A stretch of 64,000 nucleotides of DNA from Candidatus Parcubacteria bacterium (GTDB lineage Bacteria > Patescibacteriota > Minisyncoccia > Phycocordibacterales > Phycocordibacteraceae). The position numbers and the translations under genes are program-made. Positions 36,751 through 40,744 of the stretch are shown here, one piece after another; the first letter of the stretch is position 1; every line of letters begins with the position of its first letter. Below the pieces are notes generated by a model, which was not told the DNA's origin, ran no database searches, and saw only the letters and a program-made list of their open reading frames with translations. Location: the NCBI GenBank assembly GCA_034666125.1, contig JAXDML010000009.1:975-64974 (forward strand). The letters run 5' to 3'.

Positions 36751-39152
36751 CTACCACAGCACGTCCCCAATTCCCCATAGTTGATGCGTTACTGCTCACG
36801 CCGCCCGAGGCCGCCGATGGCCACATCGGCATCTGCACGAATACTGCGGCGCCGGGACAGGTGTTCAACGACATCTCCGAGGAGAACCGTCCTGCGGTCT
36901 CGGTCCTGGGCCCTCTGATCGTGAGCCGCGACGGGACCGAACGGATGATCCTGAATGCGCTTGTGCATCCGACCGTCACGTATCTCATCCTCTTTTCCGA
37001 GGAGTCGCTCACCTTCTCTCCGAGCACCAATCTGCTGCTTGCCCTGATGCACGGTCTCGACGGCACGCGCGAGGGAAACTACATCGCCAAGGGAGAAGCC
37101 GCCTCGGCCCACCTCCCGAACCTTTCCAAGGACATCGTGGACCTGTTCCGCGAGAACATCACCGTGCTGCCGCTCTTCATGTCGCAGAACAAGCAGAGCG
37201 CGGCGATTACTGCCGAATATCTTGAATGGCTCGGGTCCCGCGTGCCGGAAGACGTCCTCTCCTTCCTTAAGGAGGCGAACTCGAAGGATAAGAAATACTA
37301 CGATGCGCTGAACGGGCTCATCACGCTCCTCAAGTCGGTACCGCAAAAGAAGAAGGCTATGGTCGAGCTCGATCCCAAGGACTTCCAGCAGCTGCAACCA
37401 CCCAAGATAGCCATCCCGGAAGACCACGCCCCCTCGCCAGCCCTCTTCCGCGTCACGCTCGAAGACAACCTCCTTCGTCTCGACATCGCGGTCGGCGGCA
37501 AATCGTACTTCATGCGCGGAGATGACGACTTCCGCATCGAATATTCCCTGATGAAGTTCCTGGCCGAACGCAAAGAATTGCTTACGCCGCGCGAACAGCT
37601 CCTTATCGGCGCCGAGCTCAACCGCCTCAACGTCGAACGGACTGCCGGCATCGTTTCTGAGCCATTCATAGTGCCAAGTGACGTCGCAGGCACTGAAGAG
37701 ATACTCCTTGAGCCGGCTACGGATCTTATCCCTGACCAGGAGTATTACTACAAGATAGGATTGAAGGACGACGAAGTCTCGGTGATGTGCATGGCCTTCG
37801 ACATCTGCACCGAGGTCTTCGACCTGCGCTCGAAGGGCGCGACCGGGCTCTTCGACTGGCTGGCCGAGAAGGACCGCTTCCAGGTGTACGAGATGGATAT
37901 CCTGCACCGCATGGACGTGGGTGGGCAGATCGGGCGAGCCGTCATCGCCGCGCGCTTCGGCTACTCGTTCGTACAGGACTTCTCGAGCATTTTCAAGGTG
38001 AACACTGAGACCCTGCCGCTCCTGGCCGCCGAAGGCGACTCGTTCCTCGACGTGCACCGCTCTACGCTGCTCAAGGTCTATACCGAAGGCATCACCGAGG
38101 AACACGGGGACGCACGCAAAGGCCTGTCGCGCACCGCGATCGCGCTGGCGATCTATCGTAACGCCAGGCAGGCCTTTGACCGTCTTCCCGAGATCTACAA
38201 GCAGGGCGACCTCTCGACCGAGGAGATGCGCGCGGCATATAAGGCGCAGCTCCTGCGCCTCGATCATGACGGTGACTACAGCTACGGCGAGCGCACGCGG
38301 GTCCATTTCGGTTTCGATCAGCTCGAGAGGGCGATCTCGATACTGCAAAAGGATCCTTCCCGACCTACGCTCATCCAGCGATTCGATCCGACCGTGGACA
38401 TGGGCGCGTCGCTCGATCCGGATACCGGACGGGCGGTCTATACGCATGATCCGTGCCTGACCCACGATGTCCTCTTTTGTATAGACGGGAAACTGCATTC
38501 GTTCCATATCGCTCGCGCGCATAACCTGGCGAACGCGTACCCTGAGAACGTCTTCGGTCTCTTCGATGCATACGCGAGTACCGTACGGGAGGCTCTCAAG
38601 CTCGATTCCGGCGACCTGTACATGCTCTCGAGCCGCGGGAACATCCTTCTTCTCACGGAAGAACAGCGGGTGCGCAAGATCATCGCCGAACCTTCCAAGC
38701 CTATCGGCGAGGTCGACCGCGCGAGCGGGCCGAGACTCTTCGGGGAGAACGTGCGCACCGCAGCAGGGATGGGCGGCGTATCCTACAGCACGGCCCCGCT
38801 TGAGGAAGTTCCCCTGTATGCGCATCCGGTCATCGAGCGCGTGAAAGCCTTCGAAGGCGTCGATACCCTTGCGCGCGCGACCGGCTATCTTAAGCAGAAG
38901 GGCGGCAGTCACAACAATCCGATCCTCACCACGTACCAGGCCGGGCACTCCGATCCGCAGGCAGACCATCTCGCGTTCTTTCAGGCGAATGTCTTCGGCG
39001 AGAAGCTCCACGCGACCGCTGTCTTTACCAATCATGAGCCCGTGCCGGCAGACGACCTGAAGCTCGTTTCGGCCCTTGCCACGACGTACGCGAAGGTCCT
39101 GGACGTCCCGCTCGGGAATGGAAGTATCTTTTACATCAATGGAAACGCCTGA
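36747..39152 (+). CDS. Large fusion protein: about 375-aa domain of unknown function fused to a divergent thymidylate-synthase/pyrimidine-hydroxymethylase (ThyA-fold) domain
   Basis: ATGA start/stop overlap with the preceding gene. ThyA-like blocks FGYSFVQDF, DQLERAISILQKDPSRPTLIQRFDP (compare DQI..L..LKNDP.SRRIIVSAWN), DPCL catalytic Cys (compare PCH), HIARAHNLANAYPENVFGL (compare YQRS.D..LG.PFNIASY). The antisense 748-aa ORF is rejected on composition. Confidence 0.6.
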   Translation: MTTTARPQFPIVDALLLTPPEAADGHIGICTNTAAPGQVFNDISEENRPAVSVLGPLIVSRDGTERMILNALVHPTVTYLILFSEESLTFSPSTNLLLALMHGLDGTREGNYIAKGEAASAHLPNLSKDIVDLFRENITVLPLFMSQNKQSAAITAEYLEWLGSRVPEDVLSFLKEANSKDKKYYDALNGLITLLKSVPQKKKAMVELDPKDFQQLQPPKIAIPEDHAPSPALFRVTLEDNLLRLDIAVGGKSYFMRGDDDFRIEYSLMKFLAERKELLTPREQLLIGAELNRLNVERTAGIVSEPFIVPSDVAGTEEILLEPATDLIPDQEYYYKIGLKDDEVSVMCMAFDICTEVFDLRSKGATGLFDWLAEKDRFQVYEMDILHRMDVGGQIGRAVIAARFGYSFVQDFSSIFKVNTETLPLLAAEGDSFLDVHRSTLLKVYTEGITEEHGDARKGLSRTAIALAIYRNARQAFDRLPEIYKQGDLSTEEMRAAYKAQLLRLDHDGDYSYGERTRVHFGFDQLERAISILQKDPSRPTLIQRFDPTVDMGASLDPDTGRAVYTHDPCLTHDVLFCIDGKLHSFHIARAHNLANAYPENVFGLFDAYASTVREALKLDSGDLYMLSSRGNILLLTEEQRVRKIIAEPSKPIGEVDRASGPRLFGENVRTAAGMGGVSYSTAPLEEVPLYAHPVIERVKAFEGVDTLARATGYLKQKGGSHNNPILTTYQAGHSDPQADHLAFFQANVFGEKLHATAVFTNHEPVPADDLKLVSALATTYAKVLDVPLGNGSIFYINGNA

Positions 39153-39828
39153 CTATCTGAACGACATACGCGTGGTCGGCTTCGATCTCGATCAGACGCT
39201 GTACCCGAAGTCCCCGGTCATCGACGAGATGATCCAGTCCTACCTGTACCTGAAGATCGCCGAGCACATGGGCGTAAGCCTGGCCGAGGCCGAGAAGCTT
39301 TTCAAGGGCCGGTACCGCGGCGGGGCGGGCATGAGCGGCCGGGAGACCCTCGAAGACCTCGGTCTTCCGAACGCGTCGGACCTCGTGCAAGAGGCGCTTG
39401 AGCACGCCGACCTTACCTCGGTACTCGTGCCCGACCAGGAGACGAACCTCTTACTGGCTCGCGCGCGGGAGGCTTATGAAGGCATGGATCTCATTACGGG
39501 CTCTAACCTGGAGCAGACTCGAAAGAAGCTCGTCGCGCTGGATATAGGAATGGACGCCTTTTCACATGTCATCACTCAGGATGACGCATGGAAACTGAAC
39601 GGCGACGCGTACCGGCTTTGGCTTTCGTACTATCCGCATCTGGAACCGCATCAGTTCCTGTACGTCGGCGACCGCGCGCGAAGCGATCATGAGGTACCGG
39701 CCTCCCTCGGCATACGCACCTGCCTCGTGTACGTAGAGTCCCCGGACGTCGCCTTGCCTGCCCTGCAGCTCGTGAATCTTCGGGACCTCCGTGACATGCT
39801 TCCGCTGAAAGGTCCGACAGCCAACTAG
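39139..39828 (+). CDS. HAD-superfamily phosphatase
   Basis: Motif I VGFDLDQTLY (DxDxT) and motif IV YVGDRARSD. Overlaps the upstream stop by 14 nt. Confidence 0.65.
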   Translation: METPDYLNDIRVVGFDLDQTLYPKSPVIDEMIQSYLYLKIAEHMGVSLAEAEKLFKGRYRGGAGMSGRETLEDLGLPNASDLVQEALEHADLTSVLVPDQETNLLLARAREAYEGMDLITGSNLEQTRKKLVALDIGMDAFSHVITQDDAWKLNGDAYRLWLSYYPHLEPHQFLYVGDRARSDHEVPASLGIRTCLVYVESPDVALPALQLVNLRDLRDMLPLKGPTAN

Positions 39829-39925
39829 CCCGTCAGGCCGCGATTCTGCTTTCTCCACCCCTGTGGATAGGTGCCTCCGGATCCGCTATACTTCCAGTAG
39901 ATGCAACTTGAACCTGGAGGGTTCC

Positions 39926-40744
39926 ATGGAACTCAACGCACACGATGGCTTGGCTCAAGCCGAACTGTGGCCGGATGTTCTCTCCTTCCATGGGAGAACG
40001 TACGACCACGCAGACGCGGCGACGGCGATCCTCTCGCGGGAAACGCCGAAGCCTATCGGCATCCGGATCCAAGGCCTCCGGCCAGGAGACGTTAAGGTCG
40101 CGAAGAACGGCCTGATCCGTTTCAACTCCGAGGTTTCTCCGGAACAGCAGATCGCGTGGGCGCTTAACGTGCCGCGCGATCCAGAATTCGACGAGGAGGA
40201 CGACGGAATCATCCTGAAGGACGAGAACGACAGGAAGAATTACCTCCATTATCGGCCGGACCTGGAGAAGCTGCTGCTTGCGCTCAGGGGCATCACGCCC
40301 ACGAGGTGGCAGCGGGAGTGGTTCGCTGCGTGCAATCGCATCCGTACCGCGTGCGTGACCCATCTGATCGGTTTGGCACGCCAGATGGATGTCGTCCGGC
40401 CCGGCTATGGTTTCGAAGAACGGGTCACGGATTACTCGGACCAGCACGTGGTCCGGGTACTGAACTACGTGCCGCGGGAGGGGATCATCGCGAAGCCCCA
40501 CACGGACCGCTGCGCGATCACCTTCCATCTGGCAGAATCCGCGCCAGGTCTGTGCGCGTACAACGTCTACGAACGCCGGCCGTACGCAACGCCGAAGACG
40601 CCGTGCGCGCTTTGCTTCTCCGGCCAACAGCTGGAGCGGGTCACGCGCGGCGCAGTTCCCGCCGTCTATCACGAAGTGGAAAACAACACTCCGGGCAGGA
40701 TGCGCTGGGCACTCGTCTTCTTCGGGAAGATGCGTCCGAAATGA
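39926..40744 (+). CDS. 2-oxoglutarate/Fe(II)-dependent dioxygenase
   Basis: HxD...H facial triad (KPHTDRCAITFHL ... YHEV) and the 2OG-binding Arg (RMRWALVFF). Confidence 0.7.
   Translation: MELNAHDGLAQAELWPDVLSFHGRTYDHADAATAILSRETPKPIGIRIQGLRPGDVKVAKNGLIRFNSEVSPEQQIAWALNVPRDPEFDEEDDGIILKDENDRKNYLHYRPDLEKLLLALRGITPTRWQREWFAACNRIRTACVTHLIGLARQMDVVRPGYGFEERVTDYSDQHVVRVLNYVPREGIIAKPHTDRCAITFHLAESAPGLCAYNVYERRPYATPKTPCALCFSGQQLERVTRGAVPAVYHEVENNTPGRMRWALVFFGKMRPK

What the first reader, a model, noticed from the sequence alone, without database searches (positions are those of the whole stretch)
39139..40744. HAD phosphatase plus 2OG-Fe(II) dioxygenase completing the island; thymine-7-hydroxylase-like logic
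The dioxygenase has the HxD...H triad and the 2OG-anchoring Arg of the isopenicillin-N-synthase-like clade. That clade includes thymine 7-hydroxylase, which oxidises 5-methyl to 5-hydroxymethyl, formyl and carboxy uracil. Together with a nucleotide phosphatase (HAD, DxDxT) this would allow a nucleotide made by the ThyA-like enzyme to be dephosphorylated and then oxidised at C5 or on the sugar. It is equally compatible with nucleoside natural-product tailoring.
Basis: inference. Interest (0 to 1): 0.5.

Follow-up and report, generated by a model that had tools for sequence, protein, structure and literature searches.

The report
HAD phosphatase and orphan 2OG oxygenase
Both genes are real, but they are not a coupled pair: the phosphatase is the last gene of a conserved four-gene module that stands where the usual thymidylate-synthesis genes stand in related candidate-phyla bacteria, and the oxygenase belongs to a rare, uncharacterised family found beside thymidylate-synthesis genes and the ribosomal protein L11 gene, with its substrate still unknown.

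Summary

- The HAD overlaps the ThyA-like gene. In five Patescibacteria loci it is the fourth gene of a fixed module: ParB-CE-like, cytidine-deaminase-like, about 800-aa MtrA/ThyA-like, then HAD. Three of these loci have no oxygenase.
- The oxygenase has its own spacer, promoter-like site and terminator-like hairpin. Its family is not in NCBIfam.
- In eight lineages (31-100% identity) the oxygenase lies beside pyrimidine-deoxynucleotide genes of different kinds: thyA plus folA, thyX plus dcd, a dCMP deaminase fusion, or the ThyA-like module. It usually also lies beside rplK.
- A close relative (L11 94% identical) has folA, not the HAD, upstream of the oxygenase.

Thymine 7-hydroxylase is the closest characterised relative (profile E 5e-17). 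The fold scores are flat across the clade, and one wall of its thymine-binding sandwich (Tyr217) is an Arg here. A HAD-then-oxygenase pathway is therefore not supported. Most likely the HAD is a pyrimidine nucleotidase of the module, and the oxygenase is a separate small-molecule oxygenase tied to pyrimidine or folate metabolism.

The parts
39139..39828 (+). HAD-superfamily phosphatase gene (229 aa). It is the fourth and last gene of the conserved module. Catalytic motifs: D16xD18xT20, T120, K152, G177-D178...D183.
   Evidence: The start overlaps the stop of the upstream gene by 14 nt. Orthologues in L001, L021, L022 and L023 hold the same position.
39829..39925 (+). 97-nt spacer between the HAD and the oxygenase. 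It holds the only sigma-70-like site found in 34.4-41.3 kb (TGGATA-17-TATACT, 39864-39892) and the GGAGG ribosome-binding site at 39916-39920.
   Evidence: The promoter match alone is not above chance (1 found, 2.1 expected). L001 has a similar 102-nt spacer.
39926..40744 (+). Fe(II)/2-oxoglutarate oxygenase gene (272 aa), IPNS-like/DOXC class. Key residues: R177, Y181, H192-T-D194-R195, H249, R260-W-A262, F266.
40751..40775 (+). Terminator-like GC hairpin followed by a T run, directly after the oxygenase stop codon and facing the end of rplK.
36747..39152 (+). 801-aa protein with an MtrA-like N-terminal region and a divergent archaeal-type ThyA-like C-terminal region. It is the third gene of the module and is translationally coupled to the HAD.
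   Evidence: TIGR03283 E 1.8e-12; MtrA NF002126 E 1.3e-6; PHROG thymidylate synthase E 2.4e-5.
35872..36750 (+). 292-aa cytidine-deaminase-like protein with the catalytic domain at the C-terminus. Second gene of the module.
   Evidence: TIGR01354 E 4e-14, below cut-off.
34960..35862 (+). 300-aa protein with a weak ParB-CE domain match. First gene of the module.
   Evidence: Orthologues lie at the same place in L001 and L021-L023.
32430..34910 (-). Divergently transcribed glyA (32430-33767), tmk (33783-34475) and dut (34482-34910).
40833..41252 (-). rplK (ribosomal protein L11), convergent with the oxygenase. It is a recurrent neighbour of this oxygenase family.

Best explanation
These are two separate functional units that happen to be adjacent.

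(1) The HAD
- It is a catalytically intact HAD phosphatase.
- It is the terminal, translationally coupled gene of a four-gene Patescibacteria module: ParB-CE-like, cytidine-deaminase-like, about 800-aa MtrA/ThyA-like, then HAD.
- The module sits in the genomic slot where close relatives carry folA, and more distant ones thyA, folA and dcd or a dCMP deaminase. I read it as an alternative thymidylate-supply module.
- Inferred role: a pyrimidine (deoxy)nucleoside 5'-monophosphate phosphatase. Most plausibly it supplies (deoxy)cytidine to the nucleoside-type deaminase of the module, or it trims dUMP/dTMP pools.

(2) The oxygenase
- It is an independently transcribed accessory Fe(II)/2OG oxygenase of the IPNS-like (DOXC) class.
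- It belongs to a compact (about 260 aa), uncurated family with a signature H-T-D-R motif.
- Inferred role: using O2 and 2-oxoglutarate, it hydroxylates or oxidises a small molecule of pyrimidine metabolism. Its genes track thymidylate and pyrimidine loci whatever the type of thymidylate synthase. The leading candidate is a thymine, thymidine or deoxyuridine-type base, nucleoside or nucleotide.

Shown: the genes, motifs, fold, clade, module structure and gene neighbourhoods. Inferred: both substrates.
For: HAD
- All four motifs are invariant in 34 homologues.
- At least 119 homologous protein clusters were found; the ones that carry a source name are Patescibacteria.
- Module order and the overlapping or abutting start of the HAD are conserved in the window, L001, L021, L022 and L023.
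- The best characterised relatives are SDT1/SSM1 pyrimidine nucleotidase and XMP phosphatase.
- The deaminase matches nucleoside cytidine deaminase models best, all below their cut-offs.
- tmk, dut and glyA are adjacent.

Slot replacement
- L015 has L11 94% identical to the window's but has folA upstream of the oxygenase.
- L021 keeps argS and glyA upstream of the module and rplK downstream.
- tblastn with the relatives' genes finds no DHFR, ThyA, ThyX or DCD in the 64-kb window.

Oxygenase
- Triad and 2OG-binding residues are invariant in 148 sequences.
- Model pLDDT is 91.9.
- Profile ranking against solved structures: 3OOX 1e-21, 3ON7 3e-18, T7H 5e-17, all others 1e-11 or weaker.
- Neighbourhoods: thyA/folA (L002, L009), folA (L008, L015), dcd plus thyX (L010), CTP-transferase-like plus the start of a dCMP-deaminase fusion (L011), pyrB (L012), and the ThyA-like module (window, L001).
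- A 97-nt spacer with a promoter-like site and RBS precedes the gene, and a terminator-like hairpin follows it.
Against: - No substrate was tested, and no ligand-level modelling was possible because model coordinates could not be inspected.
- Many neighbours are folate genes (folA four times, 5-formyl-THF cyclo-ligase, a putative folate gamma-glutamate ligase, glyA), so a folate substrate fits almost as well.
- rplK is adjacent in 9 of 10 lineages with readable downstream sequence, which this explanation does not account for.
- All informative loci come from related Patescibacteria (L11 58-96% identical), so part of the synteny may be inherited rather than selected.
- One distant member (L013) has no such neighbours.
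- A nucleotidase next to tmk looks counter-productive unless it acts upstream of the deaminase.
- All HAD scores to nucleotidase models are far below their cut-offs (39.5 against 142.9 bits).
Confidence: 0.45

Rival explanations
1. The ThyA-like enzyme makes a modified pyrimidine nucleotide, the HAD dephosphorylates it, and the oxygenase then oxidises the nucleoside at C5 (T7H-like) or on the sugar.
For: - The gene order is ThyA-like, then HAD, then oxygenase, in the window and in L001.
- The HAD resembles nucleotidases.
- T7H, PDN2'H and the nucleotide halogenase AdaV are all among the close structural relatives.
Against: - The HAD and the oxygenase co-occur in only 2 of 10 informative oxygenase lineages.
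- Three of three further module loci lack the oxygenase.
- Close relatives have folA in place of the HAD.
- The oxygenase also accompanies canonical thyA/folA and thyX, whose product is ordinary dTMP.
- tmk lies next door, which suggests dTMP is used rather than dephosphorylated.
- The oxygenase has a separate spacer and terminator-like hairpin.
Confidence: 0.1
2. Folate-salvage oxygenase. The enzyme oxidises a salvaged, otherwise unusable folate so that it can feed thymidylate synthase, for example by oxidative N5-demethylation of 5-methyl-THF towards 5,10-methylene-THF.
For: - folA lies directly upstream on the same strand in four lineages (L002, L008, L009, L015).
- 5-formyl-THF cyclo-ligase is in the L009 cluster.
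- A TIGR04132-like putative folate gamma-glutamate ligase (E 1.7e-64, 217.5 bits, below its 350-bit cut-off) lies next to the L008 gene.
- glyA is in the window's cluster.
- ThyA, ThyX and the ThyA-like enzyme could all need the same C1 donor. For the ThyA-like enzyme this is an assumption.
- The conserved Arg195 next to the metal site could bind a carboxylate (inference).
Against: - To my knowledge (not searched here) no 2OG oxygenase acting on folates has been described.
- L010 (dcd, thyX), L011 (dCMP deaminase fusion) and L012 (pyrB) have pyrimidine neighbours but no folate neighbours.
- The nearest characterised relatives act on a nucleobase or on nucleotides.
Confidence: 0.15
3. Protein hydroxylase acting on ribosomal protein L11 or another translation factor.
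For: - rplK is the immediate or next-but-one neighbour in 9 of 10 lineages with readable downstream sequence.
- This holds in both convergent (window, L001, L002, L007, L008, L009, L015, L020) and tandem (L010, L011) orientation, down to 31% oxygenase identity and 58% L11 identity.
Against: - The module lies next to rplK even where the oxygenase is absent (L021, L022), so the adjacency to rplK is a property of the locus.
- L012 and L013 carry the oxygenase without rplK.
Confidence: 0.08
4. Tailoring enzymes of a nucleoside natural product.
For: ThyA-like hydroxymethylases, phosphatases and 2OG oxygenases do occur together in nucleoside-antibiotic clusters (general knowledge). AdaV-type enzymes are structural relatives.
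Against: - The host is a small-genome Patescibacteria bacterium.
- The locus is flanked by aaRS genes, glyA, tmk, dut and rplK-nusG-secE.
- No scaffold-building, resistance or export genes are present.
- The module is conserved at one housekeeping position across at least 119 HAD protein clusters.
Confidence: 0.03
5. The oxygenase acts on an unrelated small molecule. Its neighbourhood reflects inherited gene order in one Patescibacteria clade, not function.
For: - All informative loci are related (L11 58-96% identical).
- The distant member L013 shows no association.
- The nearest structures, 3OOX and 3ON7, have no known function.
Against: The neighbouring pyrimidine genes differ in kind, order and orientation between lineages, yet the association persists. 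It extends to pyrB in a locus without rplK.
Confidence: 0.19

Closest known systems
Thymine 7-hydroxylase (Neurospora crassa T7H, PDB 5C3O-5C3S; PMC4787775)
   Same: - It is the closest experimentally characterised hit of the family profile (E 5e-17).
- Equivalents are present for the HxD...H triad, R190 (R177), L192/Y194 (L179/Y181), T221 (T199), R286 (R260) and the base-stacking F292 (F266).
- Both are connected with thymine/thymidylate metabolism.
   Different: - Only the C-terminal half aligns in the profile search.
- Tyr217, which covers the base, is Arg195 here and Arg in the family consensus. N294 is Lys268 and S288 is Ala262.
- The protein is about 60-70 residues shorter.
- No iso-orotate decarboxylase partner is evident among the genes read at about 26.8-46 kb.
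- Fold scores are no better than for gibberellin oxidases, 3ON7 or EFE.
- F292 and R190 equivalents are also present in 3OOX, and an F292 equivalent in 3ON7, so they are not T7H-specific.
Uncharacterised bacterial oxygenases CC_0200 (PDB 3OOX) and SO_2589 (PDB 3ON7)
   Same: - They are the best sequence-profile matches and align over the full length (E 1e-21 and 3e-18).
- They share the D-x-K-E-(F/Y)-x-H N-terminal motif and, for 3ON7, the compact size (280 aa).
   Different: - Their functions are unknown, so they give no functional transfer.
- They have Ile after HxD where this family has Arg.
Nucleoside/nucleotide-directed DOXC enzymes: pyrimidine nucleoside 2'-hydroxylase (PDB 9HDL) and the dAMP halogenase AdaV (7V52/7FH5/7W5T)
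   Different: Their scores are not distinguishable from plant hormone oxidases. No specific substrate-binding residues could be compared.
SDT1/SSM1 pyrimidine 5'-nucleotidase (yeast; PDB 3ONN/3NUQ; TIGR01993) and related HAD-IA phosphatases (PH1655, plant XMP phosphatase)
   Same: HAD core with all four motifs and a cap insert. These are the best named matches to the HAD family profile (E 1.4e-11 to 1.3e-7).
   Different: The score is far below the equivalog cut-off (39.5 against 142.9 bits). The family appears confined to Patescibacteria, judging from the homologues that carry a source name, and is fixed as the fourth gene of the ThyA-like module.
Phage TET/JBP-type thymine dioxygenases that need a ParB-like activator (PMC13229309)
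   Same: A 2OG oxygenase, a ParB-related protein and thymine chemistry occur together in one locus.
   Different: - The oxygenase here is DOXC-type, not TET/JBP.
- The ParB-CE match is weak (25 bits).
- The ParB-CE-like gene belongs to the module, which occurs without the oxygenase. The oxygenase occurs without the ParB-CE-like gene in at least 7 lineages.

Membership tests
2OG-Fe(II) oxygenase superfamily, IPNS-like/DOXC class (PF03171) | HxD/E...H iron-binding facial triad | tested here: met
   H192, D194 and H249 are invariant in 148 sequences and align to the triads of 3OOX, 3ON7 and T7H.
2OG-Fe(II) oxygenase superfamily, IPNS-like/DOXC class (PF03171) | 2OG C5-carboxylate anchor (RxS on the last strand, plus Tyr) | tested here: met
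   R260 is at least 90% conserved and Y181 is invariant. The Ser of RxS is Ala262 in this protein and its close clade, and Ser in the family consensus.
2OG-Fe(II) oxygenase superfamily, IPNS-like/DOXC class (PF03171) | Double-stranded beta-helix fold with the N-terminal helical extension of the class | tested here: met
   [not shown]
2OG-Fe(II) oxygenase superfamily, IPNS-like/DOXC class (PF03171) | Score above Pfam's gathering threshold | tested here: met
   26.1 bits against 23. 121 of 148 family members match PF03171.
Thymine 7-hydroxylase | Aromatic sandwich for the base (F292 plus Y217/F/W) | tested here: not met
   F292 aligns with F266, but Y217 aligns with Arg195, which is Arg in the family consensus.
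Thymine 7-hydroxylase | Arg190 contacting the 2OG C1-carboxylate and the substrate's C5 group | tested here: met
   R177 is invariant. The residue is also present in 3OOX, so it is not specific to T7H.
Thymine 7-hydroxylase | Polar base-recognition residues N87, E122 and N294 | tested here: inconclusive
   N294 aligns with Lys268 (His in the family consensus). N87 and E122 lie in the N-terminal half, which did not align.
Thymine 7-hydroxylase | Activity on thymine, 5hmU and 5fU | not testable with these tools
   Needs an enzyme assay.
HAD superfamily phosphatase (PF00702) | Motifs I (DxDxT), II (S/T), III (K) and IV (GDxxxD) | tested here: met
   D16, D18, T20, T120, K152, G177, D178 and D183 are invariant in 34 sequences. 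PF00702 scores 29.4 bits against 26.4.
SDT1-type pyrimidine 5'-nucleotidase (TIGR01993) | Score above the equivalog cut-off | tested here: not met
   39.5 bits against 142.9. This is a resemblance only.
TET/JBP 5-methylpyrimidine dioxygenases with a ParB activator | TET/JBP-type catalytic domain and obligate pairing with a ParB-like gene | tested here: not met
   [not shown]

The most novel reading that the evidence does not exclude
This family could be a Patescibacteria-specific, O2-dependent enzyme of thymidylate metabolism that accompanies whichever thymidylate synthase a lineage has (ThyA, ThyX or the MtrA/ThyA-like fusion). Two candidate activities fit. One is the first bacterial counterpart of the fungal thymine or thymidine oxygenases, recycling the thymine moiety of scavenged DNA. 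The other is an oxidative converter of salvaged 5-methyl-folate into a usable C1 donor. Either would be a previously unrecognised step in nucleotide or cofactor salvage in organisms that depend on scavenging.
Probability: 0.25. Interest if true: 0.65.

Novelty: new member of a known kind. Interest (0 to 1): 0.4.

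Why it matters
Patescibacteria (candidate phyla radiation) have minimal genomes and are thought to live on scavenged nucleotides and cofactors. How they make dTMP is therefore central to their biology.

This analysis shows three things.
- The HAD is a fixed part of a four-gene module that stands in the genomic slot where closer and more distant relatives carry folA, thyA and dcd. That raises the question of why a thymidylate module needs a phosphatase.
- An uncurated 2OG oxygenase family follows thymidylate loci of three different kinds. 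An O2-requiring accessory enzyme at this position in organisms usually regarded as fermentative anaerobes gives a concrete, testable lead to an unknown salvage or pool-editing reaction.

Tried and rejected
- AlphaFold2 with only the 5 close homologues gave an unusable model (pLDDT 45). It was redone with 148 sequences.
With 9 sequences it found only 1 genome locus and 6 short metagenome loci, and nothing in viral contigs.
- The afdb50 fold library was unavailable.
- Single-sequence and 5-sequence profile searches of the ThyA-like protein against solved structures gave no ThyA hit, only weak MtrA hits. Its ThyA-like status rests on TIGR03283 and one PHROG.
- The ParB-CE-like protein gave no informative structure hit. 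Its suggested kinase role is therefore not claimed.
- NCBIfam has no model for any of the 148 oxygenase family members. PHROGs and PADLOC gave nothing for the HAD or the oxygenase, so there is no evidence for a phage or defence role.
- tblastn with the relatives' DHFR, ThyA, ThyX, DCD, dCMP deaminase fusion, HIT-like proteins, 5-FCL and GATase found nothing in the window.
- Literature searches found no description of this family, of a bacterial T7H, or of the functions of 3OOX and 3ON7.
- The phage ParB-dependent T-dioxygenase analogy was considered and rejected as a membership claim.
- GTG 39863 was rejected as the oxygenase start, in favour of ATG 39926.

Full report
**Origin and layout**

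The oxygenase and the HAD are identical to proteins of a Candidatus Parcubacteria metagenome-assembled genome.

The region reads as follows.
- Minus strand: ileS, argS, glyA (32430-33767), tmk (33783-34475), dut (34482-34910).
- Plus strand, closely packed:
  - a 300-aa protein with a weak ParB-CE match (34960-35862);
  - a 292-aa cytidine-deaminase-like protein (35872-36750);
  - an 801-aa protein with an MtrA-like N-terminal part and an archaeal-type ThyA-like C-terminal part (36747-39152; TIGR03283 E 1.8e-12);
  - the HAD (39139-39828);
  - after a 97-nt spacer, the oxygenase (39926-40744).
- Minus strand again: rplK, nusG and secE, converging on the oxygenase.

**Observation check**

The HAD ATG overlaps the upstream stop codon by 14 nt. 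PF00702 is above threshold. Motifs I-IV (D16xD18xT20, T120, K152, G177-D178...D183) are invariant in 34 homologues.

The oxygenase starts at ATG 39926, behind a GGAGG, not at GTG 39863. PF03171 is above threshold.

A search of 1.84 billion representative proteins found a family of about 250-280-aa proteins: 467 representatives at E <= 1e-3 and 172 at E <= 1e-10. In 148 aligned members K104, R177, Y181, H192, D194, H249 and F266 are invariant, and R260 is nearly so. With that alignment AlphaFold2 gives pLDDT 91.9. With only five sequences it had failed.

**Placement of the oxygenase**

- Profile search against solved structures: CC_0200/3OOX (E 1e-21) and SO_2589/3ON7 (3e-18) come first, both uncharacterised and aligned over the full length. 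Thymine 7-hydroxylase follows (5e-17, C-terminal half only). After a gap come an ancestral ethylene-forming enzyme (1e-11), the dAMP halogenase AdaV (1e-10) and plant DOXC enzymes.
- Foldseek puts T7H nominally first (E 1.2e-12), but 3ON7, GA2ox3, 3OOX, IPNS, EFE and a nucleotide halogenase lie within two orders of magnitude.

The IPNS-like clade assignment is therefore right, and T7H is the nearest characterised relative. The fold alone says nothing about the substrate.

I mapped the T7H residues defined in PMC4787775 through the alignments.
- Conserved: R190=R177, Y194=Y181, H214/D216=H192/D194, T221=T199, H271=H249, R286=R260, F292=F266.
- Changed: Y217, one wall of the thymine sandwich, is Arg195 (Arg in the family consensus). 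N294 is Lys268. S288 is Ala262.
- N87 and E122 could not be aligned.
- F292- and R190-type residues also occur in 3OOX.

The protein is not a T7H orthologue. H-T-D-R is a family signature that would suit an anionic or carbonyl-rich substrate (inference). No NCBIfam model covers any of the 148 members.

**Gene neighbourhoods of the oxygenase**

| Locus | Oxygenase identity | Neighbourhood |
|---|---|---|
| L001 | 67% | Same module and HAD, then oxygenase, a glutamine amidotransferase, rplK |
| L015 | 66% (L11 94%) | folA, oxygenase, rplK |
| L002 | 54% | thyA, HIT-like, dCMP-deaminase fusion, RfaE-II-like nucleotidyltransferase, HIT-like, folA, oxygenase, rplK |
| L008 | 45% | dCMP-deaminase fusion, nucleotidyltransferase, folA, oxygenase, TIGR04132-like putative folate gamma-glutamate ligase (below cut-off), rplK |
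| L009 | 31% | tmk, thyA, dcd, 5-formyl-THF cyclo-ligase, folA, oxygenase, rplK |
| L010 | 31% | rplK, oxygenase, dcd, thyX |
| L011 | 32% | nusG, rplK, oxygenase, nucleotidyltransferase, start of a dCMP-deaminase fusion |
| L012 | 33% | pyrB, oxygenase |
| L013 | 33% | No related neighbours |

The oxygenase therefore accompanies three different kinds of thymidylate synthase, with varying gene order and orientation. The HAD is present only in the window and L001.

Close relatives were not found in viral contigs. There is no defence-system match.

**Gene neighbourhoods of the HAD**

The HAD has at least 119 homologous protein clusters at 39-78% identity. The ones that carry a source name are Patescibacteria: Paceibacterota, Sungbacteria and "Patescibacteria group".

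In three further loci with long flanks, L021 (62%), L022 (55%, Sungbacteria) and L023 (48%), the same four genes occur in the same order, with the HAD last and abutting or overlapping the 800-aa gene. None of them has an oxygenase. The 800-aa protein is 54-84% identical across these loci.
- In L021 the module has argS and glyA upstream and rplK downstream, as in the window. A transposase sits where the oxygenase is here.
- In L022 the module also converges on rplK.

The module thus occupies the slot that a very close relative fills with folA and more distant ones with thyA, folA and dcd or a dCMP deaminase. No DHFR, ThyA, ThyX or DCD is detectable in this 64-kb window. I read the module as an alternative thymidylate-supply unit, with the HAD as an integral part.

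**Transcription signals**

The module genes overlap or abut: a 9-nt gap, then 4-nt and 14-nt overlaps. The oxygenase follows a 97-nt spacer that holds the only sigma-70-like match in 34.4-41.3 kb. That match alone is not above chance. A GC hairpin with a T run follows the oxygenase. This fits a separate unit but does not prove one.

**Mechanism**

Shown:
- an intact HAD phosphatase;
- an intact Fe(II)/2OG oxygenase of the small-molecule DOXC class;
- the module structure;
- the recurrent neighbourhoods.

Inferred for the HAD. Its best characterised relatives are pyrimidine and purine nucleotide phosphatases: SDT1/SSM1 E 4.5e-10 and XMP phosphatase 1.3e-7, and TIGR01993 E 5e-10 but far below cut-off. 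The module's deaminase matches nucleoside-type cytidine deaminase models best, although below their cut-offs. The relatives' clusters instead use nucleotide-level dCMP or dCTP deaminases. The most economical role is therefore dephosphorylation of (d)CMP to feed the nucleoside deaminase. Trimming of dUMP/dTMP pools is the alternative.

Inferred for the oxygenase. It carries out O2- and 2OG-dependent hydroxylation of a small molecule tied to pyrimidine metabolism, because pyrimidine genes are the common denominator of its neighbours, including pyrB in a locus with neither folate genes nor rplK. A folate substrate is the main rival, since folA lies directly upstream in four lineages and other folate genes are nearby. 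An L11-directed activity is a weaker rival: rplK adjacency is striking, but the module sits by rplK without the oxygenase, and the fold argues for small molecules.

**Comparison and novelty**

Both proteins are new members of well-known superfamilies. The oxygenase family is uncurated and uncharacterised, and I found no literature on it.

The recently described phage thymine dioxygenases that need a ParB-like activator (PMC13229309) are a tempting analogy, given the ParB-CE-like first gene. But those are TET/JBP enzymes, and here the two genes are not linked across genomes.

Its clade assignment, and the general connection to thymidylate metabolism, are.

**Verdict**

- Interest is moderate (0.4). 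The genes themselves are ordinary in kind.
- The persistent pairing of an O2-dependent oxygenase with thymidylate loci, and the phosphatase built into a thymidylate-replacement module, are concrete leads that can be tested.

Noticed in passing
window 34960-39828 (also L001, L021, L022, L023): A conserved four-gene Patescibacteria module: ParB-CE-like, cytidine-deaminase-like, 801-aa MtrA-like/ThyA-like fusion, then HAD. It stands in the slot where relatives have folA, thyA and dcd, between glyA/argS and rplK. No DHFR, ThyA or ThyX is detectable in the window. The MtrA-like domain raises the idea of a thymidylate synthase that uses a different methyl carrier and makes no dihydrofolate.
   Followed up: partly
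window 26830-30342 (-): The isoleucyl-tRNA synthetase is 1170 aa long and carries an inserted histidine-phosphatase (phosphoglycerate-mutase-like) domain with RHGE and SHGE motifs. The L001 orthologue is listed with PF00300 between the two halves of the synthetase domain.
   Followed up: no
window about 41900-42800, gene 42291-42725 (-): A low-GC patch (GC about 0.51, GC3 of the gene 0.31) holds a NUDIX-hydrolase-like gene between secE and the SIMPL-domain gene. L001 has different genes at this position, which suggests a recent insertion.
   Followed up: no
window 3045-4112 (-): Two adjacent small P-loop (kinase-like) ORFs lie in another low-GC stretch (GC3 0.46-0.51, against 0.7-0.85 for most genes).
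   Followed up: no
L006, L007, L016, L017 (starts of the contigs): Four independent assemblies break inside or just before the 5' end of the oxygenase gene. This fits strain-level variation in what lies upstream (folA versus the HAD module).
   Followed up: no
window 40833-42030 and loci L001-L011, L021, L022: In none of these loci is rplK followed by rplA. The oxygenase or the thymidylate locus lies there instead. In L002 and L022 a 23S-rRNA-intervening-sequence-protein gene (PF05635) sits between nusG and rplK.
   Followed up: no
L002 2567-4010, L008 27-1988, L011 1855-2546: A recurring pair lies next to the oxygenase: an RfaE-domain-II-like nucleotidyltransferase and a dCMP deaminase with a conserved extra N-terminal domain (V-A-Y-(V/I)-P-x-L-H-x-G-Y). 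L002 also has two HIT-like proteins. This may be another unstudied pyrimidine-salvage unit.
   Followed up: partly
window 36789-39035 (-) and 39833-40789 (-): Very long antisense ORFs (748 and 318 aa) lie opposite the ThyA-like and oxygenase genes. They have no homology support and are likely artefacts of high GC content.
   Followed up: partly
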